Shown: piece by piece, positions 3,447-38,282 of the stretch
Layout of the letters: each line of letters starts with the position of its first letter
Position numbering within the stretch: position 1 is the stretch's first letter
NCBI RefSeq assembly: GCF_013315695.1
Contig: NZ_CP054353.1
Origin: Escherichia coli
Lineage (GTDB): Bacteria > Pseudomonadota > Gammaproteobacteria > Enterobacterales > Enterobacteriaceae
Direction: 5' to 3' (one strand)
DNA length: 64,000 bases
Notes under the pieces: generated by a model
What the model saw: the letters and a program-made list of their open reading frames with translations, nothing else
What the model was told of the DNA's origin: nothing
The model's database searches: none
Program-made: the position numbers and the translations under genes

Positions 3447-5165
3447 TTACCTTAGCCAGTTCGTTTTCGCCAGTTCGATCACTTCATCACCGCGTCCGCT
3501 GATGATTGCGCGCAACATATACAAGCTGAAACCTTTGGCCTGTTCGAGTTTGATCTGCGGTGGAATGGCTAATTCTTCTTTGGCTACTACCACATCCACC
3601 AACACCGGACCGTCGATGGAAAAGGCGCGTTGCAGGGCTTCATCGACTTCAGAGGCTTTTTCCACGCGAATACCCGTAATTCCGCACGCTTCGGCAATGC
3701 GGGCAAAGTTGGTGTCGTGCAGCTCAGTACCGTCTGTCAGGTAGCCTCCGGCTTTCATCTCCATCGCCACAAAGCCCAGCACGCTGTTATTAAAGACGAT
3801 AATTTTCACTGGCAATTTCATCTGCATTACTGAGAGGAAATCGCCCATCAACATACTGAAACCGCCATCGCCGCACATGGCGACCACCTGACGTTCCGGC
3901 TCGGTTGCCTGCGCACCCAGCGCCTGCGGCATGGCGTTAGCCATCGAACCGTGGTTAAACGAACCTAACAGACGACGCTTGCCGTTCATTTTCAGATAAC
4001 GTGCCGCCCACACCGTTGGCGTACCAACGTCACAGGTAAAGATGGCGTCATCGGCGGCAAAATGACTAATTTGCTGCGCCAGATATTGCGGGTGAATGGC
4101 TTTCTCGCTCGGTTTAGCTAAATCATCCAGCCCTTTGCGGGCGTCGCGGTAATCTTCCAGCGCTTTATCCAGAAACTTGCGATCGGTTTTTTCTTCCACC
4201 AGTGGCAGCAATGCCCGCAGGGTTGATTTGATATCGCCGACCAGTGCCATATCTACCTTGCTATGCGCGCCGATGCTGGCTGGGTTGATATCAATCTGAA
4301 TAATTTTGGCATCGGTCGGGTAGAACGCGCGGTAGGGAAATTGCGTGCCGAGCAGCACTAACGTATCGGCATTCATCATGGTATGGAAACCTGACGAGAA
4401 GCCGATTAATCCCGTCATTCCGACATCATACGGATTATCGTATTCGACATGCTCTTTACCGCGCAGGGCATGAACAATAGGCGCTTTAATTTTCCCGGCA
4501 AACTCAACTAACTCTTTATGCGCCCCCGCGCAGCCGCTGCCACACATCAGGGCGATATTGCTGGAATAACGCAGCAGTTGCGCCAGTTTGCGTAACTCTT
4601 CTTCTTCCGGCGTCACGACTGGTTGTGGCGCATTATACCAGTGGGTAGTTGCCCCTTCTGGTGCAGGTTTTAACGCCACGTCGCCCGGTAACACGACAAC
4701 GGAAACGCCACGGTTTAGCACTGCTTTGCGCATAGCAATTGCCAGCACTTGTGGGATCTGCTCTGGGCTGGAAACCAGCTCGCAATAGTGACTACATTCG
4801 CGGAATAGCTCTTGTGGGTGGGTTTCCTGGAAATAGCCGCTGCCAATTTCGCTGGAGGGAATATGAGCGGCAATCGCCAGTACCGGAACGTGATTGCGGT
4901 GGCAATCGAACAGGCCGTTGATTAAGTGCAGGTTGCCGGGGCCGCACGATCCGGCACAGACCGCCAGTTCTCCGCTAAGTTGTGCTTCAGCGCCAGCGGC
5001 AAACGCCGCCACTTCTTCATGCCGGGTGGACATCCACTCGATGGTGCCCATGCGATTAAGACTGTCACTAAGACCGTTCAGAGAGTCGCCCGTGACTCCC
5101 CAGATGCGTTTCACTCCTGCCGATTCGAGTGTTTTGGCGATATAAGCTGCAACCGTTTGTTTCAT
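3447..5165 (-). CDS. poxB: pyruvate oxidase (ubiquinone-dependent pyruvate dehydrogenase), TPP/FAD enzyme
   Basis: 572-aa [34 protein letters not shown]..., TPP-binding GDGG motif. Confidence 0.9.
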
Positions 5166-24340: not shown

Positions 24341-25027
24341 TTAAATGCCGAGTGGGAAAATATCATGGCCTTGTTCCTGCCAACTGGTGAGTTGCTGCTG
24401 TTGGGCGGAGGTTCGATTTTCACCGCACCACACCAGCAATGTACGGCCTTCGAACAGTTCAGGGCGTAGTTGATTGAGCGAGTGGGCGAGGACATCAATG
24501 CGCCATCCTTGTTGACTGGCAATCCAGCCCTCCAGCCACAGACGGGTGGTATCCTGAATATTCCAGCCAACCACCAGCGCATCTTTACCCTGTTTTTTAC
24601 GTGCCGAAGCCAGACAAATGGCAATGTAGTTGATCAGTACGCCGTCGAGGATCGCCAGCAGCGCCTGGAGAGTCGGTTGTTGGCACTGAAGCCGTCGGCG
24701 CAGTGGAATGAACAGATGTGTGGTGAGTGTCTGGGCGGGGTAATCCTGACCGCGCTCTTTGATCCACGTTCGCAGGCTATGCAGATTGCCGCTTTGCAGG
24801 TAAGTCAGTAATGTTTCTTGCTGATCGCGCCAGCCGTTCTGCACATCAACATTTTCATTACTGAGCAGCATTTTTACTTTGCTGACCTGCACGCCATTGT
24901 CGATCCAGCGTTTGATCTCGCGGATCCGGTCAATATCGGCATCGTTGAACAGCCGATGACCGCCGTCTGTCCGTTGCGGTTTCAGCAATCCGTAACGCCT
25001 CTGCCACGCGCGTAACGTGACAGGGAT
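24341..25027 (-). pseudogene. mlrA: MerR-family curli regulator MlrA (YehV), 5' end replaced by prophage DNA
   Basis: Reading frame matches MlrA from ...PVTLRAWQRRYGLLKPQRTDGGHRLF onward; upstream codons diverge and hit an in-frame stop, with no ATG for the native N-terminus (MALYTIGEVALLCDIN missing); first in-frame ATG gives the 215-aa ORF 24341..24988. Confidence 0.7.
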
Positions 25028-25062
25028 TAAGGGTAAACTAACTGATTTTACAAGTTTTTATT

Positions 25063-26349
25063 TTACCCCACTTTCTTATGGGGCATACATGGGACACTTT
25101 CAGATAGTCTTTTGTTAAGGAGTTCTATCTGTTCGTGATTGTTGTCTTTCATCCATGCTCCGTAAACATTGAATACCATTTGTGCGTTTGTGTGGCCCAT
25201 CTGGCTTGCGATAAAACTAGGATTAGCTCCAGCGGCAAGTGACCAGCATGCATAAGTATGCCTGGATTGGTACGATTTTCTGTGTCTCAGACCTGCGTGT
25301 TTTAAGATACTTGTCCATGACTCCCTGATGGAGTCAACCTTATAGTGCGGTCCGGAAAACTGCCGCTGTTTTATTACCTGAGGACTAAAAACAAAAGTGC
25401 ATTTATGCACAGTACTTCTCCCATATTCCCTCTGCTTTACCTCTACAGAATGTTGCTTTCCAAGCATGGTCATTTCCGCCTGACTTTTAAGAGCATCAAT
25501 AGCTGGTTGAACCAGATGAATTGTCCTTCCGGTGCCAGCATCGGTTTTTGGTGGAGTGAATTCGCCAAGTTTTGTATAATTCCTACGGATGGTTATAGTC
25601 CTTGCTTTAAGATCTATATCTTCCCATGCCAGCGATACCAGCTCCCCGTGACGAATACCCGTGTATACAGCGAGAATCCACAGGTTTTTTGTTTGTTGAT
25701 GACGGCAAGCCTCAATAAAACGAATAAATTCGTCACGGGTGAGAGGATCTGGTTTTACCTTGGACTTTTTTAAGGGAGCCAGACCGTTAAATGGGTTTCC
25801 TGAGGTATAACCATTATCTGTTGCAAATTGAAACATTCCAGCTATGGTTGTCATATAGTAGTTTACCGTGACCACTGAGCGCCCTTTTATGGAAGAAGTC
25901 TTTCCATTAGAAAGTTTTTGGTAACCGGTCAACAAATCTCTCCTTACGAAAAGTAAATCCTCTTTTGTTATGGATGAAACCAGTTTTTTTTCACCTAACA
26001 TTGGTAACATGTTTTTAATTACTGACTGGTAACGGTTAAGTGCATTCGCACAAATCTCAATTTTCTTAAGGTCCAACCATTTTTCCGAAAGTGCCTTAAC
26101 GGTTATCTCTCTTTTTCCCAGACCAAAGTGTTTCAGGTTAGGGGAATTAGGGAACTGCGCGGAGTAGTCGAAACTCCCCATTCTGATTGCAAAACAAACG
26201 GAAGTGCGAAGTTCACCAGCGATCTTCCGGTTTTTGGCTGTGTCAGGAACACCGAGGTTTTCTCTGACACGTTTGCCATTATAGTGAAACCATATACGGA
26301 GTGATCCTCCATGGTTTTCAACGCCTGTCGGGTATGATGCGTTACTCAT
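25063..26349 (-). CDS. int: tyrosine-type site-specific integrase
   Basis: 428-aa ORF with R (GIRHGEL), HxxR (SRHTYA) and catalytic Y (VFNVYGAW) motifs; adjacent to the attL junction. Confidence 0.9.
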   Translation of the reverse strand: MSNASYPTGVENHGGSLRIWFHYNGKRVRENLGVPDTAKNRKIAGELRTSVCFAIRMGSFDYSAQFPNSPNLKHFGLGKREITVKALSEKWLDLKKIEICANALNRYQSVIKNMLPMLGEKKLVSSITKEDLLFVRRDLLTGYQKLSNGKTSSIKGRSVVTVNYYMTTIAGMFQFATDNGYTSGNPFNGLAPLKKSKVKPDPLTRDEFIRFIEACRHQQTKNLWILAVYTGIRHGELVSLAWEDIDLKARTITIRRNYTKLGEFTPPKTDAGTGRTIHLVQPAIDALKSQAEMTMLGKQHSVEVKQREYGRSTVHKCTFVFSPQVIKQRQFSGPHYKVDSIRESWTSILKHAGLRHRKSYQSRHTYACWSLAAGANPSFIASQMGHTNAQMVFNVYGAWMKDNNHEQIELLNKRLSESVPCMPHKKVG

Positions 26350-27120: not shown

Positions 27121-27639
27121 TCATTGATTCACCTCCTGCCTGTCGTCCGGCATTCGCTCACTACAGCTTATCCAACCATCCGGAGTTACCGGAGAGCTGG
27201 TTGACGCTTCCGGGATTTTCCGAAAATTATTGGTTGACGAATCTTTATTTTCCCGAAAGTTTCCGGACTGAAGCATGGCTTCGCGGCAATCGTTCCAGCC
27301 TGTAGCGTATGCAGCCGCTTTGCTGCTGCCTTCAACTGGCGCATCCTGCCAATACATTTCTTCCGGCACTACCGGCGCTGGAGGGGCGGCGTAAATGCCC
27401 TCTATCACTAAATGTTTGCGCTCAAAATCATCTGGCTCTCGATGATATACGTAACTCCAATCACCAAGGTTATCATTGCGCCTGCAACGGAAACCTATCG
27501 GCTCTGCTTCCAGCGATGCCAGAGCAATTCGTGCCAGTTCTTCCGCTTCTTCTGCTGGCAGTACAACGTTGCTACCCGGTCCGTATGTTTCGCGCCACTG
27601 CTTGATTGTCAGCAGTCGCTCTTTGGTAATAGTGATCAT
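27121..27639 (-). CDS. hypothetical early-left protein
   Basis: 172-aa ORF, 4-bp overlap (translational coupling) with the upstream gene. Confidence 0.5.
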   Translation of the reverse strand: MITITKERLLTIKQWRETYGPGSNVVLPAEEAEELARIALASLEAEPIGFRCRRNDNLGDWSYVYHREPDDFERKHLVIEGIYAAPPAPVVPEEMYWQDAPVEGSSKAAAYATGWNDCREAMLQSGNFRENKDSSTNNFRKIPEASTSSPVTPDGWISCSERMPDDRQEVNQ

Positions 27640-28151
27640 GCCGCGTTTCCTTCTTTCTTATTAACAATTACACCGTCATATATTTCATTAAGGTGCCCTC
27701 TCAACTCCATGCGCCTTAATGCAGATAACATGTAATCGCATTCAACCTGCTTATTCCCGGTAAATGGCTTATCGTCAGGATTACCCCAACAGCAATTACC
27801 CCTGGGCCATCCATGTACTTTCCGTACTCTTCCGTTAACAACGTGAAGTAATCCCCAGCCGGGAGGTAAATCCTCAACTGAAATAATTTCCGGCTCACTA
27901 ATAAAGAATCGCCAGTCGCCCATGCCAAGTGAGGGATTTTTACGGAAACGCTTTTTTCTATCTGCCAACAAGTCAGCACGAGAACACTTCGCCTCTATCA
28001 GGCATGATGCTGAATTTCTGAATCCCATAGCATCTGGCTGTTCTCCGGTACTGGTTACAGCAACAAAGCGGTCATGAAAGCAAACCTTGAACCCGTTGCG
28101 CTTAAGGAACTTGTACGCAATCTGACAGAGTTCGTGGTGTGTTAACGCCAT
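27636..28151 (-). CDS. PD-(D/E)xK-type nuclease-like protein
   Basis: 171-aa ORF with an E-x-PD...IEAK arrangement (GEQPDAMGF ... CLIEAKCS) typical of restriction-endonuclease-fold nucleases. Confidence 0.5.
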   Translation of the reverse strand: MALTHHELCQIAYKFLKRNGFKVCFHDRFVAVTSTGEQPDAMGFRNSASCLIEAKCSRADLLADRKKRFRKNPSLGMGDWRFFISEPEIISVEDLPPGWGLLHVVNGRVRKVHGWPRGNCCWGNPDDKPFTGNKQVECDYMLSALRRMELRGHLNEIYDGVIVNKKEGNAA

Positions 28152-28152
28152 A

Positions 28153-28752
28153 TCACTCTCCTTTGATGCGAATGTCAGCGACGCGTAATGCGTGTTCTAG
28201 GTCAATCAGGTAAAGCCAACTGCCATTTTCTTTAGGTATCATGACTTGTCGCTCATCTGCATTTATGGGGTGTCCATATCGAAGGTCGTAGCGAGTCGGT
28301 AATTGAACTTCCCGCGCTTCCAGTTCAGCAATACGCTTGCACCCATCAGAGATAACTCCCTCATAATACTCGCGCTGCTCGTTGAGTTTTGATTTTGTCT
28401 CCTCAAGCTCAACGCGCAGCTTCCCTACCGTTAGCGCAATATCCTCGTTCTCCTGGTCGCGGCGTTTGATGTATTGCTGGTTTCTTTCCTGTTCATCCAG
28501 CAGTGCCAGCACGGTAGCCGGGTTAGCCTCTGCTATGAATTCAGCGTTTGCATAAGCCTGAGCATCTGTTTCAACCAGGCAGTTAACGTGACATTCTGCA
28601 ATTACGCCACCGGGTTCTCCTTTCCATTTTTGACAAACAAAAACTCCTGTTAAATTGCCGTGTTGGTTAACAGATGTATGCCCTACGATGTAGCTTCCTT
28701 TAGTTGCTTTCTCTGCCTTTTCACGCAGTACCTGATAGTTAATGTTGCTCAC
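28153..28752 (-). CDS. Ead/Ea22-like protein
   Basis: 199-aa ORF with NPATVLALLDE motif and coiled-coil region, as in lambdoid ea22-like genes. Confidence 0.55.
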   Translation of the reverse strand: MSNINYQVLREKAEKATKGSYIVGHTSVNQHGNLTGVFVCQKWKGEPGGVIAECHVNCLVETDAQAYANAEFIAEANPATVLALLDEQERNQQYIKRRDQENEDIALTVGKLRVELEETKSKLNEQREYYEGVISDGCKRIAELEAREVQLPTRYDLRYGHPINADERQVMIPKENGSWLYLIDLEHALRVADIRIKGE

Positions 28753-29184: not shown

Positions 29185-29543
29185 TTTTTATTCTTCGGTG
29201 CTTTCGGCATTACTGCCCAGTGAGTGATATTGACGTTTTCAAGGTCCCCGACCTGAAATGTCCACAGCCATTCTCCGGTTTCTTTTTGTCCCCAGGTGTA
29301 CCAGAGAGAACGCCAGCCAATTAGCCAGCCTTCTCCGTTAGCATCAAATAACAGAACACTTTCATTTGCTGGTGGCAGTTCAGCTGACACTGGTATTATT
29401 TTGTTTTCCAGTGCCGCACATTTAGCTTCAAGCGCGTCGAATTTACGTAACAGGTACTCAGCATTTGTTTCATTCACTTTCAGATCTCGCGGTACACATT
29501 TCCCGCGAAGAAACCCTTCCATTTCGAAAACATTCATGCGCAT
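29181..29543 (-). CDS. DUF551-like phage protein
   Basis: 120-aa ORF with GEGWLIGWRSLWYTWGQ tryptophan-rich motif. Confidence 0.45.
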   Translation of the reverse strand: MRMNVFEMEGFLRGKCVPRDLKVNETNAEYLLRKFDALEAKCAALENKIIPVSAELPPANESVLLFDANGEGWLIGWRSLWYTWGQKETGEWLWTFQVGDLENVNITHWAVMPKAPKNKK

Positions 29544-30139
29544 TTGCGTAACTCCGATAAATCGTTAAAACGTTCCATAAACATCCCGTAGGCATGACCC
29601 GGTGCCAGTGGAATCACGTTGAACATCTCTGTTGCCGGGATGCCTTCCAGTACTGGCCAGAAAGAGCCATCATCAAGCCCGAGATCGCGGCGTTCGGTTG
29701 CCAGCATGATGAGATCGGCATATTTCACAGGCGTGCGCATAACCGGGGGTAACCCGTATTTCTCACGGATTACGGCGTCTATTTTTTCTTCCATCCGTTT
29801 ATAGTCAGGAAGAAGGCGTTTCAGTGGAGCGGGAATATCCTGGCAATACGCTTCTGTTGCATCATGCATTAACGCTTCAAAAGCAAATTCCTGCGGCACC
29901 AGCTGGCTGCAAAGCACCGCATGCTGGGCGACACTGTAGAAGTGTGAAAGATGTCCTGCAAAGCGACAGATATTTGAAAGGGAAACCGCGATATCGTTAA
30001 TCACGATGTCGTCTTTATTTATCTTGTCATAATAAAAATGCTTCCCGGAAAAAGTTTTAATAAATGACATTTCGTTCTCCACTTTATATGCGCTGCACCG
30101 CTCTGAATTTTGATTGCAGCAATCCAGCCCATTTGACAT
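29534..30139 (-). CDS. HD-domain metal-dependent phosphohydrolase (5'-nucleotidase-like)
   Basis: 201-aa ORF with H...HD motif (SVAQHAVLCS ... ALMHDATEAY). Confidence 0.55.
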   Translation of the reverse strand: MSNGLDCCNQNSERCSAYKVENEMSFIKTFSGKHFYYDKINKDDIVINDIAVSLSNICRFAGHLSHFYSVAQHAVLCSQLVPQEFAFEALMHDATEAYCQDIPAPLKRLLPDYKRMEEKIDAVIREKYGLPPVMRTPVKYADLIMLATERRDLGLDDGSFWPVLEGIPATEMFNVIPLAPGHAYGMFMERFNDLSELRKCA

Positions 30140-30160
30140 GGGATGATTGCTGCAATTTTT

Positions 30161-31078
30161 TTAAGTTGTTGGATTTTGGCTTTTATCTTCTTTGTAAGAA
30201 AGAAGGTCACACATCAAATTAACTACCTTGCTGAATTGGAAAAGGTCAGCGCCAGTCTGATGACGCCACTGGAATGCTTTATCATCTTCATCATTAAATG
30301 TCTGAGATTGAGTATTGATGCGCGAAAAATGGAAATTTTCGGTAAGAATGAAGGTCACACCGCAACCGGATAACTCCATTTTATCAGCAGTGAAACTACT
30401 ACTAAGGCTATCGGCCAGTTCGCTTTGAATTGACTCATGCTCAGCTGAGTAGCGAATAATTTCCTTTTGATCTGCGTAGCGTGATAGCTGAATATAATTT
30501 CCGACAGTGAATCCTTCAAATGCATTGGCTGCACCATTGATGTAGTTATTCAGGCGTGTAGTCAGTCCATTCTTGATATCACTGATGTTGATTGTTTCTG
30601 TTTTCACTGAACCGACAACCTTAATCAGCATTGCGCATACCATACCGGCTATTATTTTATTGGTTGTGTTGATTACCAATAATTTCTCATCAGTGCTGTA
30701 CAATGCAAGAATCAGAGTAGACTTAACAAATGCCTGTTTGCATAGATCTACTCGTACGTTATCAATAATGGCCAGTCGTTCGGCACGCTTTAATTTATTC
30801 CCGGACATATTTTCGGTTGTTTGGATTCGAGAATTAGCTTCTTTCATGACGACATGTCGGGGAATTATTTTCTGATCATGACGGATTACCATTGCGTACC
30901 CACCAGATATCGGAGTTACCAGTTCACCAGTGACAGGATTCTCTACAAAAGAGGACCGTGAAAATTCTGTTTCCCCGATTTCAGAATAAGGGAGTTCGAG
31001 AAGATGACCTTCAATAGCCTGTATACTAGGTAATGTTGCTCGGTACACAATTGCGTTACGAAATTTTGGTAATTTCAT
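30161..31078 (-). CDS. RdgC-like recombination-associated protein
   Basis: Long ORF 30161..31279; likely start MKLPKFRNAIVYRATLP at 31078 with a GAGGAAAA RBS; RdgC-like N-terminus; AT-rich. Confidence 0.5.
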   Translation of the reverse strand: MKLPKFRNAIVYRATLPSIQAIEGHLLELPYSEIGETEFSRSSFVENPVTGELVTPISGGYAMVIRHDQKIIPRHVVMKEANSRIQTTENMSGNKLKRAERLAIIDNVRVDLCKQAFVKSTLILALYSTDEKLLVINTTNKIIAGMVCAMLIKVVGSVKTETINISDIKNGLTTRLNNYINGAANAFEGFTVGNYIQLSRYADQKEIIRYSAEHESIQSELADSLSSSFTADKMELSGCGVTFILTENFHFSRINTQSQTFNDEDDKAFQWRHQTGADLFQFSKVVNLMCDLLSYKEDKSQNPTT

Positions 31079-31692
31079 TCTATTTTCCTCTGCACAATGT
31101 ATTAGTTTCTCCACAAAACAGAGAAGAACACCTGCGGTGGCAGCCGCCCGGATGGATTGGGTTATGAGCCCGTCGTCCGGTGATGCTCTTCTCTGTTTTG
31201 TAAAAAGAGCGGTACCAGCCGGAAGCAAGTGTACAAACTGGTACCGCCAAAGCAGTGGCTGTTGTGGTGGGGTTGTCACTCAGGCGTATGGTCAACCTGA
31301 CAACCCGGTGTCCTCAACGGGGAAAGAGTAACCCCGCCATACTTACCGCCGCGCCATTTCGCGGATTACCACAACGCTGAGAGCACTTAGCCAGTTACGG
31401 CACCACACTTTGTCGCGGTTCCATAAATGCCCTCATCGTTGCACCCTGGTCTCTTCCCAGGCGTCAAACCGAATCGCCACGCTGGTTAGGCGTCTTATCA
31501 GCATCCTCATTGACTTGCACATTCCGGCTATCTGGTTTGTTTGCCCGAGCAAGGAGTGGATTGTCCCCTTTAACGTCCCCAGACCGCTAACGACGCATGT
31601 GCCATACGCCGTGTTACAACCAAATTTTGTTAGTACCTTGTTTGTAGGTCTGGAGAGAAAGATAAAATGAAGTTGCGCATTATGCAAGTGTT

Positions 31693-31766: not shown

Positions 31767-32459
31767 TTAATTGTGTCGCTTAAGGGTCTGTGACTGACTG
31801 ATTAAGACCTTTCCAAAGACCATAAACCGGTGTTCGTTTTCGCTGGTAATTCCCCATTCGCGGTAAATCTGATTATCAGAAATTACCAGCAGTTTATCAG
31901 GTATCATTTGCAGTCGTTTGACGTAAATTTTATCATCAAAACCAAATACATATATACCATCCCCATCAAACTGATTGATACTGATATCAACGAAGATGAG
32001 ATCTCCTGGCTCAATGGTTGGACACATACTGTCCCCACGAACGTTGATAACTTTAATGTGATTTGCTGGTCGTCCACCAAACATCGATACAGCATTATCA
32101 GTTCTGTATTCAATGGCATGAATCACATCAATGACATCACCGCCCTGGATAAGGCCATTTCCCGCACTGGCACTGACATCCAGCATTTCAATACGGAATA
32201 CATCCTTCACCTGCGTAACATCCTCACTAATACTGTTTTTACATACAGTATTACTTTTGAGGTCTGAGGTAAAGAGATCAGCAATATCAACACCTAAGCT
32301 CCTGGCAATATTACTCAGGGCTTGTTCAGTGAATTGTTTCTGCTTACCTGTTTCGAGGCGCGAGATATTCGCCGCATCCACTCCTATTGCTTCAGCGAGA
32401 TCGGCGATTTTCATGTTCTTCGCCTGGCGAAGTTGTCTGACTCGATTTCCTATGTTCAT
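31767..32459 (-). CDS. cI: CI-like phage repressor (HTH plus S24 LexA-like peptidase domain)
   Basis: 230-aa ORF with N-terminal HTH (IADLAEAIGVDAANISRLETGK) and C-terminal S24 motifs (GDSMCPTI ... KRL); divergent from cro. Confidence 0.85.
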   Translation of the reverse strand: MNIGNRVRQLRQAKNMKIADLAEAIGVDAANISRLETGKQKQFTEQALSNIARSLGVDIADLFTSDLKSNTVCKNSISEDVTQVKDVFRIEMLDVSASAGNGLIQGGDVIDVIHAIEYRTDNAVSMFGGRPANHIKVINVRGDSMCPTIEPGDLIFVDISINQFDGDGIYVFGFDDKIYVKRLQMIPDKLLVISDNQIYREWGITSENEHRFMVFGKVLISQSQTLKRHN

Positions 32460-36423: not shown

Positions 36424-36914
36424 TCATGAGTCTTTTGAATGAAGTTCAGAAATTCATTGAAGCCCATCCGGGCTGTACTTCCGGAGACATTGCGGATGCT
36501 TTTGCTGGTTACTCACGGCAGCGCGTTCTGCAGTCAGCAAGCAAGTTACGTCAGAGTGGGCGTGTGGCTCACCGTTGTGAAGGAGATACACGCAGACATT
36601 TCCCACGCCTGACTGAGAGAGCGCAGGATCCGGAACCACAACCAGTTCGTGAAACCAGACCTGTGCGCAATTTCTATGTCGGCACTAACGATCCCCGTGT
36701 GATTTTGTGCCTGACCCGCCAGGCTGAAGAACTGGAGTCCAGGGGCTTATACCGTCGTGCTGCAACGGTGTGGATGGCGGCATTCCGTGAAAGCCACTCC
36801 CAGCCAGAACGAAACAATTTTCTGGCACGTCGTGAGCGGTGCTTACGGAAAAGCAGCAAGCGCGCTGCATCGGGTGAAGAGTGGTATCTGTCAGGGAATT
36901 TCGTGGGGGCTTAA
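36420..36914 (+). CDS. hypothetical protein (replication-module position)
   Basis: 164-aa basic ORF translationally coupled to both neighbours. Confidence 0.4.
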   Translation: MIMSLLNEVQKFIEAHPGCTSGDIADAFAGYSRQRVLQSASKLRQSGRVAHRCEGDTRRHFPRLTERAQDPEPQPVRETRPVRNFYVGTNDPRVILCLTRQAEELESRGLYRRAATVWMAAFRESHSQPERNNFLARRERCLRKSSKRAASGEEWYLSGNFVGA

Positions 36915-37567
36915 TGAGTAATAAATATTGCCAGGCGCTGGTGGAACTGCGGAACAAACCAGCCCATGAACTGAAGGAAGTGGGCGATCAGTGGCGCACG
37001 CCGGACAACATTTTCTGGGGAATTAACACCCTGTTTGGCCCGTTTGTTCTGGATCTGTTCACTGACGGTGATAACGCCAAATGTGCTGCGTATTACACTG
37101 CGGAAGACAACGCGCTGGCGCATGACTGGTCTGAACGTCTTGCGGAGCTTAAAGGTGCTGCCTTTGGTAATCCCCCGTACAGCCGCGCCAGTCAGCATGA
37201 GGGGCAATACATCACCGGCATGCGTTACATCATGAAACATGCCAGTGCCATGCGTGATAAAGGCGGGCGCTATGTTTTCCTGATCAAAGCTGCCACCAGC
37301 GAAGTGTGGTGGCCGGAAGATGCAGATCATATTGCTTTTATTCGCGGGCGTATTGGTTTTGAACTGCCTGCCTGGTTTATCCCGAAAGACGAAAAGCAGG
37401 TGCCAACAGGTGCTTTCTTCGCTGGTGCTATTGCTGTTTTCGACAAGACCTGGAAGGGACCGGCAATCAGCTACATAGGGCGCGATGAACTTGAGGCATG
37501 TGGTGAGGCGTTTCTGGCGCAGGTTCGCCAGCAGGCGGAAAAACTGGTCAGGGAGATGGCGGCATGA
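36914..37567 (+). CDS. phage DNA N6-adenine methyltransferase (Dam-like)
   Basis: ORF 36881..37567; likely start MSNKYCQ at 36914; NPPY catalytic motif (AFGNPPYS). Confidence 0.7.
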   Translation: MSNKYCQALVELRNKPAHELKEVGDQWRTPDNIFWGINTLFGPFVLDLFTDGDNAKCAAYYTAEDNALAHDWSERLAELKGAAFGNPPYSRASQHEGQYITGMRYIMKHASAMRDKGGRYVFLIKAATSEVWWPEDADHIAFIRGRIGFELPAWFIPKDEKQVPTGAFFAGAIAVFDKTWKGPAISYIGRDELEACGEAFLAQVRQQAEKLVREMAA

Positions 37568-37890
37568 CGACGTTAACTCAATGCCAGCAGCAGGTGCTGG
37601 ATATGCTGATTTCTTATCAGAAAGAACGTGGCTTCCCGCCAACCAATCAGGAGGTGGCAACCATGCTGGGATACCGTTCGGTGAATGCAGCGGTGGAGCA
37701 TCTTCGCGCACTGGAGAAAAAAGGCGTCATCACGATAAAGCGTGGCGTGGCCCGGGGGATAACGCTTCATACTGCGATGAAGGACGACGACAGCGAGGCG
37801 GTCGGGATTATCCGCGCACTGCTTGCCGGTGAGGAAAACGCAAGGCTGCGTGCAACCCACTGGTTACATGAGAGGGGCCTGAAAGTATGA
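37564..37890 (+). CDS. LexA N-terminal DNA-binding-domain-like protein
   Basis: 108-aa ORF, winged-HTH segment LTQCQQQVLDMLISYQKERGFPPTNQEVATMLGYRSVNAAVEHLRALEKKGVI resembling the LexA DNA-binding domain; no peptidase domain. Confidence 0.55.
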   Translation: MTTLTQCQQQVLDMLISYQKERGFPPTNQEVATMLGYRSVNAAVEHLRALEKKGVITIKRGVARGITLHTAMKDDDSEAVGIIRALLAGEENARLRATHWLHERGLKV

Positions 37891-38282
37891 AGCTAATACT
37901 GCCTTTTCCGCCCAGCGTGAACACGTACTGGCGACACCCCAACAAAGGGGCGTTTGCTGGTAAGAGCCTGATAAGCGCGGCGGGGCGAAAATTCCAGAGC
38001 GCGGCGTGTGCAGCAATAGTTGAGCAGTTACGTCGTCTGCCGAAACCAACGTCGGCACCTGCTTCAGTGGAGATCGTGTTGTTTCCTCCGGATAACCGGA
38101 TCCGCGATCTGGACAACTATAACAAGGCGCTGTTTGACGCCCTGACCCACGCGGGTGTGTGGGAAGACGACAGTCAGGTGAAAAGAATGCTGGTGGAGTG
38201 GGGACCGGTTATCCCGGAGGGGAAGGTCGAGATCACTATCAGTAAGTACGAAAAAGCGAGTTGCAAATTAGCAACTCGGTAA
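37887..38282 (+). CDS. rusA: RusA-family Holliday-junction resolvase
   Basis: 131-aa ORF MKLILPFPPSVNTYW...DLDNYNKALFDALTHAGVWEDDSQV, conserved RusA motifs. Confidence 0.8.
   Translation: MKLILPFPPSVNTYWRHPNKGAFAGKSLISAAGRKFQSAACAAIVEQLRRLPKPTSAPASVEIVLFPPDNRIRDLDNYNKALFDALTHAGVWEDDSQVKRMLVEWGPVIPEGKVEITISKYEKASCKLATR

What the first reader, a model, noticed from the sequence alone, without database searches (positions are those of the whole stretch)
27636..28151. PD-(D/E)xK-like nuclease gene in the early-left accessory region
The 171-aa ORF has the D...(D/E)xK layout (QPDAMGF ... LIEAKC) and is tightly packed with overlapping neighbours (Ea22-like, two unknown small ORFs). No partner recombinase (Bet/RecT/Erf) is evident, so it may be a recombination, repair or anti-phage nuclease rather than an exonuclease of a canonical recombination pair.
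Basis: partly seen in the sequence, partly recalled or inferred. Interest (0 to 1): 0.4.

Follow-up and report, generated by a model that had tools for sequence, protein, structure and literature searches.

The report
Unannotated MmcB-like phage nuclease gene
The 171-codon gene is real and encodes a restriction-endonuclease-fold (PD-(D/E)xK) protein from a large, unnamed phage family distantly related to the bacterial DNA-repair nuclease MmcB; this is a useful annotation, not a surprising discovery.

Summary
Window 27636-28151 (minus strand) is an intact 171-aa gene in the early-left operon of a lambdoid prophage. It has a strong ribosome-binding site and is packed tightly against both neighbours.

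No Pfam, NCBIfam or PADLOC model matches it. The evidence that it is a PD-(D/E)xK nuclease is:
- A confident AlphaFold model (pLDDT 84) has the canonical alpha-beta-beta-beta-alpha-beta core.
- Profile-profile comparison with MmcB gives 98% probability (E 2e-13), and the catalytic residues align.
- Acidic-27, E37, D40, E53 and K55 are kept in at least 99% of 148 representatives that are no more than 50% identical to each other.

The family has at least 3300 such clusters and occurs in 17% of complete E. coli genomes. It is also found in strictly lytic phages next to primase or helicase genes. It has no conserved partner gene.

The most likely role is a stand-alone, metal-dependent DNA endonuclease working in phage replication, recombination or repair. 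It is not a Bet/RecT-coupled exonuclease, and a defence role is unlikely.

Novelty is modest: an unnamed sister family of a known kind.

The parts
27636..28151 (-). 171-aa gene for an MmcB-like PD-(D/E)xK nuclease-fold protein (PHROG 9263/631, function unknown)
27951..28073 (-). Catalytic core block, residues D27 to K67. It comprises acidic-27, G36-E37-x-P39-D40 (start of strand 2), E53-x-K55 (strand 3), and the following helix S57-R58-x-D60-(F/L)61-x-x-D64-x-x-K67.
   Evidence: Codons read. Conservation counts. Secondary structure. Residue-by-residue match to MmcB E42/D52/E66/K68/S70/D73/D77/K79.
27636..27866 (-). C-terminal part, residues 96-171. It holds the conserved P96-x-G-W99-G100-L101 hairpin and the helix carrying E137, R146 and R147, which probably forms a DNA-binding surface. 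The last ~8 residues are disordered in the model.
28158..28163 (-). Shine-Dalgarno sequence AAGGAG, 6 nt upstream of the ATG, embedded in the 3' end of the Ea22-like gene
   Evidence: Read directly from the sequence.
27636..27639 (-). ATGA stop/start overlap with the downstream truncated DUF551-like gene, suggesting translational coupling
   Evidence: Sequence and ORF coordinates.
28153..28752 (-). Context: upstream Ea22-like gene in the same operon. It is the most frequent neighbour of the family, but in only 11 of 69 viral loci.
   Evidence: Pfam PF13935 at 1.1e-40. Neighbour clustering.
27121..27639 (-). Context: downstream gene whose C-terminus carries only the first 16 positions of the DUF551 domain (a truncated, mosaic gene)
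   Evidence: Pfam match. PGAP note 'missing C-terminus'.

Best explanation
The gene encodes a small, stand-alone, metal-dependent DNA endonuclease of the PD-(D/E)xK (restriction-endonuclease-like) fold. It belongs to a large phage-borne family that no curated database names and that is a remote sister of the bacterial MmcB/DUF1052 repair nucleases.

The predicted active site is an acidic residue at position 27 (after strand 1), D40 at the start of strand 2, and E53-x-K55 on strand 3. A helix with the motif S-R-x-D-F-x-x-D-x-x-K, shared with MmcB, backs it. E37, H5, R70 and R81 are additional invariant residues specific to this family.

The gene is transcribed with the early-left operon, so it is made when the prophage is induced or on infection. 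It is translationally coupled to its neighbours.

Its most likely job is to cut damaged or branched DNA (stalled forks, lesion-containing or recombination intermediates) during phage DNA replication. This would parallel the role proposed for MmcB in tolerance of mitomycin C crosslinks. It would not act as the exonuclease half of a recombination pair.

Shown here: the gene, the fold, the homology, residue conservation, distribution and genomic contexts. Inferred: catalytic activity, substrate and biological role.
For: **Fold and homology**
- The model has pLDDT 83.9 and pTM 0.79, with helix 5-18, strands 22-25, 41-45 and 48-54, helix 58-64 and strand 80-85.
- 3dnx is an MmcB-family protein. Sinorhizobium MmcB matches PF06319 at 1.6e-79 and matches 3dnx at 3.9e-30.
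- hhalign of the phage family against an MmcB alignment gives 98% probability, E 2e-13, over 104 columns, with the catalytic residues in register.
- Reciprocal HMM searches link the two families in both directions, scoring up to 42.5 and 39.5 bits.
- In the viral structure library, after the family's own members the next tier of matches includes phage proteins named MmcB-like DNA repair protein (E 3e-7 to 1e-4).

**Conservation**
- Acidic-27 in 139/140, E37 in 145/146, D40 in 145/146, E53 in 147/148, K55 in 147/148, D60 in 148/148, D64 in 148/149.
- Purifying selection on the ORF.

**Context**
- Vibrio phage MAR10: directly after the polymerase, primase/helicase and SNF2 helicase genes.
- Phage Vi01: abuts the gp61 primase gene.
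- An Ackermannviridae Vibrio phage: two genes (about 870 bp) from the primase gene.
- A metagenomic phage: directly after DnaB and DUF3987 genes.
- Neighbour families across 69 viral loci are integrase, helicases, DnaB, SSB, NinB, NinG, RdgC, DNA methylases and nucleotide hydrolases.

**Literature**
- MmcB is described as an SOS-regulated PD-(D/E)XK endonuclease that protects Caulobacter from mitomycin C and cisplatin (PMC9578287).
Against: - No biochemical data exist for any member of this phage family, and every database name is 'hypothetical protein'.
- The window protein alone does not reach any Pfam model at E<=1. It scores only 13.3 bits against my MmcB HMM. The homology is visible only at the profile level.
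- As far as I could read, MmcB's own substrate and activity are not established. The primary paper is not held.
- The prophage already encodes a RusA resolvase, so the gene is not needed for junction resolution.
- Its position in the variable int-proximal accessory region here would also suit a non-essential 'moron' gene.
Confidence: 0.6

Rival explanations
1. It is a Holliday-junction or branched-DNA resolvase of the archaeal Hjc type that resolves recombination or replication intermediates before packaging.
For: - 34 of 50 divergent family members give weak Pfam hits to Hjc PF01870, best E 1.3e-4.
- The literature links DUF1052/MmcB to archaeal junction resolvases (PMC1189080).
- The gene sits in the replication modules of lytic phages.
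Against: - All Hjc hits fall below the Pfam cut-off: 16.9-17.7 bits against 21.1.
- This prophage already has RusA, and some loci carry NinG/Rap beside the gene.
Confidence: 0.15
2. It is a prophage 'moron' that protects the lysogen: a superinfection-exclusion or anti-phage nuclease, or a nuclease aimed at host or competing DNA.
For: - It lies in the variable int-proximal accessory region of a temperate phage, a typical place for defence cargo.
- It occurs in 927 of 5426 E. coli genomes and also on plasmids.
- C5 and N6 DNA methylases are occasional neighbours.
Against: - No PADLOC model matches it.
- There is no sensor or regulatory domain and no conserved partner; the largest neighbour cluster covers 11 of 69 loci.
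- The family is present in strictly lytic Ackermannviridae and Vibrio siphoviruses inside replication modules.
- It is co-transcribed with lytic early genes, so it is unlikely to be expressed in the repressed lysogen. No independent promoter stands out above chance.
Confidence: 0.15
3. It is a catalytically inactive PD-(D/E)xK-fold protein that only binds DNA, acting as a regulator or structural factor.
For: No enzymatic data exist. Some PD-(D/E)xK-fold proteins have lost activity; this rests on general knowledge and was not tested here.
Against: The full catalytic set (acidic-27, D40, E53, K55) is kept in at least 99% of 148 divergent representatives. That pattern is expected of an active enzyme.
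Confidence: 0.05
4. It is the exonuclease half of a two-component recombinase (lambda Exo/RecE/YqaJ type) whose annealing partner was missed.
For: It has the PD-(D/E)xK fold, as lambda Exo does, and lies in the early-left operon where exo-bet normally sits.
Against: - No YqaJ or Exo Pfam match.
- No Bet/RecT/Erf gene in the operon.
- No single-strand annealing protein family among the 25 neighbour families listed of 48 found across 114 neighbour clusters.
- At 171 aa it is much smaller than those exonucleases, and it is closest to MmcB.
Confidence: 0.02

Closest known systems
MmcB / DUF1052 family (Pfam PF06319; structure 3dnx, SPO1766 of Ruegeria pomeroyi; Caulobacter crescentus MmcB)
   Same: - Same extended signature: acidic residue, then D, then ExKxSxxDFxxDxxK.
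- Similar size, about 150-175 aa, and single-domain.
- Expressed after DNA damage: MmcB through the SOS response; this gene through prophage induction, which is an inference.
   Different: - It does not reach the PF06319 threshold. Only 14 of 50 relatives give weak hits.
- Family-specific invariant residues: H5, E37 (MmcB has Arg in that segment), R70, G78, R81, W99.
- 'GMGDWRF' replaces MmcB's 'Y..CDRlfF'.
- It is phage-borne rather than a chromosomal gene of Alphaproteobacteria.
Archaeal Holliday-junction resolvase Hjc (PF01870)
   Same: Minimal PD-(D/E)xK core of similar size. There are weak sequence hits and structural hits.
Phage proteins annotated 'MmcB-like DNA repair protein' (for example Acidovorax phage ACP17, Dickeya phage JA13, Enterococcus phage iF6 gp154)
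   Same: Phage-encoded, about the same size, structurally similar (Foldseek E 3e-7 to 1e-4), and listed among replication/recombination genes (PMC10054541).
   Different: Those proteins reach the PF06319 annotation and share only 15-23% identity with this protein. This clade is a separate one that remains unnamed.
Lambda Exo / RecE / YqaJ recombination exonucleases
   Same: Same superfamily fold and the same operon position in lambdoid phages.
   Different: No sequence match, no partner annealing protein, and a much smaller protein.

Membership tests
PD-(D/E)xK nuclease superfamily | Core alpha-beta-beta-beta-alpha-beta fold (restriction-endonuclease-like) | tested here: met
   [not shown]
PD-(D/E)xK nuclease superfamily | Catalytic D at the start of strand 2 and (D/E)xK on strand 3, conserved in homologues | tested here: met
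   D40 precedes strand 41-45, and E53/K55 lie at the end of strand 48-54. They are kept in 145/146, 147/148 and 147/148 representatives.
PD-(D/E)xK nuclease superfamily | Divalent-metal-dependent phosphodiester cleavage | not testable with these tools
   This needs purified protein and DNA substrates.
MmcB-like (Pfam PF06319 / DUF1052) | Scores above the Pfam gathering threshold (22 bits) for PF06319 | tested here: not met
   No Pfam hit at E<=1 for the window protein. 14 of 50 relatives give weak hits, best E 2.9e-4. The window protein scores 13.3 bits against my own MmcB HMM.
MmcB-like (Pfam PF06319 / DUF1052) | Detectable homology to the family at profile level | tested here: met
   hhalign gives 98% probability and E 2e-13. 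Reciprocal HMM hits score up to 42.5 and 39.5 bits.
MmcB-like (Pfam PF06319 / DUF1052) | Closest solved structure is the family representative 3dnx | tested here: inconclusive
   [not shown]
MmcB-like (Pfam PF06319 / DUF1052) | Extended motif E...D...ExKxSxxDFxxDxxK | tested here: met
   The aligned columns are acidic-27/E42, D40/D52, E53/E66, K55/K68, S57/S70, D60/D73 and D64/D77, with a following Lys (K66/K67) opposite MmcB K79. The window protein has L61 where the family has F.
MmcB-like (Pfam PF06319 / DUF1052) | Confers resistance to mitomycin C or cisplatin; SOS-regulated | not testable with these tools
   Known for Caulobacter MmcB only (PMC9578287). The phage gene has not been tested.
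Archaeal Holliday-junction resolvase Hjc (PF01870) | Scores above the Pfam gathering threshold (21.1 bits) | tested here: not met
   No hit for the window protein. Relatives score 16.9-17.7 bits, best E 1.3e-4.
Lambda Exo / YqaJ recombination exonuclease with annealing partner | YqaJ/Exo domain and an adjacent Bet/RecT/Erf gene | tested here: not met
   No Pfam match. No such gene in the operon or among the 25 neighbour families listed of 48 found.
Known anti-phage defence systems (PADLOC-DB 2.0) | Match to a defence-protein model | tested here: not met
   No family at E<=1 for the target or for either flanking gene.

The most novel reading that the evidence does not exclude
This unnamed phage clade of MmcB-like nucleases could be a dedicated damage-tolerance or fork-processing enzyme. 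It would let phage genomes replicate from templates carrying crosslinks or other blocks. This would matter most for prophages, which are induced by the very agents (mitomycin C, UV) that damage their own DNA. On this reading, the gene gives phages a repair activity that E. coli lacks, and the family would be a tractable model for the still undefined biochemistry of MmcB.
Probability: 0.2. Interest if true: 0.55.

Novelty: new member of a known kind. Interest (0 to 1): 0.3.

Why it matters
- **Scale of the gap.** The family is very large: at least 3300 clusters at 50% identity. It is carried by 17% of complete E. coli genomes, including Shiga-toxin phages, and by lytic Ackermannviridae and Vibrio phages. 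Yet Pfam, NCBIfam and PADLOC have no model for it and PHROGs lists it as unknown.
- **Annotation error.** PGAP labels intact copies as 'frameshifted' pseudogenes.
- **What the assignment gives.** Placing the family in the MmcB-like branch of PD-(D/E)xK nucleases provides a testable function and specific residues to mutate (D40, E53, K55) for a common phage gene. It also adds a phage sister group that could help work out what MmcB nucleases actually cut.
- **Limits.** This is a standard fold assignment. It is not a new mechanism.

Tried and rejected
- **Direct scans found nothing.** The protein matched no model in Pfam, NCBIfam or PADLOC. A sequence search of the PDB gave only chance-level hits.
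- **PDB profile search.** 3dnx appeared only at E 0.49. I treated it as a lead and confirmed it by other routes.
- The AFDB Foldseek library was unavailable.
- **Foldseek against the PDB.** No significant hit, and 3dnx was not recovered.
- **Conserved partner gene.** Clustering the three genes on each side of the homologue in 69 viral loci found no cluster present in more than 11 loci. I rejected the idea of a two-gene system.
- **Domain fusions.** Longer family members carry dATP/dGTP pyrophosphohydrolase, DUF551 or a TniB-like ATPase. The first two recur as adjacent neighbour genes in the viral loci, so the fusions look like merged gene calls. I rejected them as functional clues.
- **Promoter and terminator scan.** Counts around the gene were near those of shuffled sequence (promoters 9 found vs 10.4 expected; terminators 10 vs 6.4, sd 2.6), and nothing marks an independent promoter or terminator at the gene.
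- **Selection analysis.** dN/dS was uninformative for most pairs because synonymous sites are saturated; only 5 pairs were usable.
- **Literature.** The primary MmcB paper (Lopes-Kulishev 2015) is not in the held library, so statements about MmcB rest on a review.

Full report
**1. What is in the sequence**

The minus strand of window 27636-28151 carries an ATG-to-TGA ORF of 171 codons. I checked the D40, E37, E53 and K55 codons directly in the sequence.

An AAGGAG ribosome-binding site (28163-28158) lies 6 nt upstream of the ATG, inside the end of the preceding Ea22-like gene. That gene's stop codon is 1 nt from the start. The target's own stop overlaps the next gene's ATG as ATGA (27639-27636).

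The gene is one of a run of co-directional genes between the repressor and the integrase:
- cI-like repressor, 31767-32459
- RdgC-like, 30161-31279
- HD-domain 5'-deoxynucleotidase YfdR, 29534-30139
- a DUF551 protein
- two small ORFs
- Ea22-like gene
- the target
- a truncated DUF551-like ORF
- DUF4222 protein, excisionase and integrase (25063-26349)

. This is the early-left operon of a lambdoid, Stx-phage-like prophage. No Bet, RecT or Erf gene is annotated anywhere in it.

**2. It is a real, constrained gene**

- The word-indexed search found 308 homologues, all named 'hypothetical protein' and none with a Pfam domain.
- An exhaustive profile search of 1.84 billion cluster representatives found 3300 at E<=1e-3 and 2441 at E<=1e-10.
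- tblastn found the protein in 642 phage records. These include Stx1/Stx2 phages, Klebsiella phages, Vibrio siphoviruses and, for the N-terminal ~110 residues, Vi01-like Ackermannviridae.
- The DNA is present in 927 of 5426 complete E. coli genomes, with 248 copies on plasmids.
- Against the viral homologues, synonymous sites are mostly saturated while amino-acid identity stays at 50-75%. In the 5 pairs where it could be computed, median dN/dS was 0.13.

**3. Fold**

Pfam, NCBIfam and PADLOC give no match for the protein itself. PHROGs places it in families 9263 and 631, both of unknown function, with a faint hit to a 'DNA repair protein' PHROG.

An AlphaFold2 model built on 35 homologues is confident (pLDDT 83.9, pTM 0.79). 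Its element order is helix 5-18, strands 22-25, 41-45 and 48-54, helix 58-64, strand 80-85. This is the PD-(D/E)xK core, with D40 at the head of strand 2 and E53-x-K55 at the end of strand 3.

Foldseek against the PDB gave only weak hits (best E 0.01). Most are nucleases of the same fold class (Hjc, AF1548, R2 endonuclease domain, Bax1, EcoT38I), but 3dnx is not among them. The two methods agree on the fold but not on the nearest neighbour.

**4. Link to MmcB**

A profile of the family picked up 3dnx at E 0.49, aligning exactly the D...IExKxSRxDFxAD block. I then tested that lead in steps.

- Using the 3dnx fragment as a tblastn query on plasmids returned genes annotated 'MmcB family DNA repair protein'.
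- The Sinorhizobium copy matches Pfam PF06319 at 1.6e-79 and 3dnx at 3.9e-30. So 3dnx is a true MmcB/DUF1052 member.
- hhalign of a 50-sequence alignment of distant phage-family members (A2) against a 12-sequence MmcB alignment (A3) gives 98% probability and E 2e-13 over 104 columns. It pairs acidic-27 with E42, D40 with D52, E53 with E66, K55 with K68, S57 with S70, D60 with D73 and D64 with D77.
- An MmcB HMM detects 148 of 149 phage-family sequences (median 20 bits, maximum 42.5). The phage-family HMM detects all 12 MmcB sequences; the Bacillus plasmid MmcB domains score best, at 39.5 and 30.8 bits.
- In the viral structure library, after the family's own uncharacterised members, the next tier of matches includes phage proteins named MmcB-like DNA repair protein.
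- Scanned individually against Pfam, 34 of 50 distant members give sub-threshold hits to Hjc and 14 to MmcB-like. This fits the published link between DUF1052 and archaeal junction resolvases (PMC1189080).

Conclusion: this is a remote sister family of MmcB. It is not a member of PF06319 as currently defined.

**5. Catalytic residues**

Counts are across 148 representatives that are at most 50% identical to one another.

| Position | Conserved in |
|---|---|
| 27 (D or E) | 139/140 |
| E37 | 145/146 |
| D40 | 145/146 |
| E53 | 147/148 |
| K55 | 147/148 |
| D60 | 148/148 |
| D64 | 148/149 |
| K67 | 148/149 |
| R70 | 148/148 |
| G78 | 149/149 |
| R81 | 148/149 |
| H5 | 129/133 |
| W99 | 141/145 |

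H5, E37, R70, R81 and W99 are not conserved in MmcB, so they mark this clade. Conservation this strict argues for an active enzyme.

**6. Context and likely role**

In lytic phages the gene lies in replication modules:
- directly after the polymerase, primase/helicase and SNF2 helicase genes in Vibrio phage MAR10
- abutting the gp61 primase gene in Vi01
- two genes (about 870 bp) from the primase gene in an Ackermannviridae Vibrio phage
- directly after DnaB and DUF3987 genes in a metagenomic phage

In temperate lambdoid elements it sits either near the integrase, as here, or in the nin region beside NinB or NinG.

I clustered the neighbours in 69 viral loci. No partner is conserved: the largest cluster, Ea22-like, covers 11 loci. 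The families found are integrase, DUF551, dATP/dGTP pyrophosphohydrolase, DNA methylases, helicases, HNH, RdgC, DnaB, NinB, NinG, SSB and Q. Apparent domain fusions largely mirror these neighbours and are uninformative.

According to a review, MmcB is an SOS-regulated PD-(D/E)XK endonuclease that protects Caulobacter against mitomycin C and cisplatin. It is proposed to act with translesion polymerases on interstrand crosslinks (PMC9578287).

By inference, the phage protein is a stand-alone endonuclease acting on damaged or branched DNA during phage replication. I cannot say which substrate.

- A pure junction-resolvase role is less likely, because this prophage has RusA and the Hjc similarity is weak.
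- A defence role is less likely because of the lytic-phage distribution, the absence of a PADLOC match and the lack of any sensor or partner.
- An Exo-type role is excluded for practical purposes.

**7. Novelty and score**

What this analysis adds:
- the specific MmcB link
- the size and distribution of the family
- the family-specific invariant residues
- the finding that PGAP mis-annotates intact copies as frameshifted pseudogenes

I file it as a new (unnamed) member of a known kind, with interest 0.3.

Noticed in passing
window 27973-28151 (the first 179 nt of the target gene): In identical or near-identical copies (NZ_LR898874, NZ_CP014111, plasmid NZ_CP104668), PGAP annotates only this stretch, as 'hypothetical protein, frameshifted'. 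Yet the 171-codon ORF is intact and collinear with the whole family. This is probably an annotation artefact seeded by truncated reference proteins: PHROG 16308 is a 58-aa family, and cluster P0052 is a 111-aa fragment with 645 member sequences.
   Followed up: partly
window 27121-27639 (-): The downstream 172-aa ORF carries only the first 16 of 68 positions of the DUF551 domain, at its extreme C-terminus, and PGAP calls it 'missing C-terminus'. The Ea22-like ORF (28153-28752) is also flagged as partial. The target gene therefore appears to sit between two mosaic junctions.
   Followed up: partly
window 29534-31279 (-): The early-left operon has no exo/bet/gam module. In that position are an RdgC-like protein (PF04381, 5e-30) and a YfdR-type HD-domain 5'-deoxynucleotidase. 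In related E. coli prophages a YfdQ family protein replaces RdgC.
   Followed up: partly
window 37887-38282 (+) and neighbours (about 36881-37890): By coordinate mapping from the PGAP-annotated identical prophage, the nin-like region encodes a RusA junction resolvase, an N6-adenine methyltransferase and a LexA-family regulator.
   Followed up: no
window about 24341-25062: By the same mapping, the integrase gene abuts mlrA (also called yehV), with yohO and the yehW-Y/osmF genes further out. The prophage therefore occupies the mlrA/yehV locus, which I recall as a known Stx-phage integration site; that recollection was not checked here. In strain MSB1_4I the same integrase is disrupted by an ISKpn26 insertion.
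   Followed up: no
L095 (E. coli plasmid NZ_CP104668, 58.9 kb), locus 4001-4516: A 97% identical copy of the gene sits on a plasmid. Nearby are HicAB toxin-antitoxin genes, a mobilisation protein and an LPD7-domain protein. In all, 248 E. coli copies are plasmid-borne, several on replicons of about 98 kb that may be phage-plasmids.
   Followed up: no
L003 445-1821 and L004 403-1809 (Bacillus plasmids): Bacillus plasmid proteins annotated 'MmcB family' are about 460 aa long, with the MmcB domain only at the C-terminus after a long coiled-coil-like N-terminal region. In one case the next gene encodes a GIY-YIG nuclease. Their MmcB domains score higher against the phage-family HMM than the alphaproteobacterial MmcBs do.
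   Followed up: no
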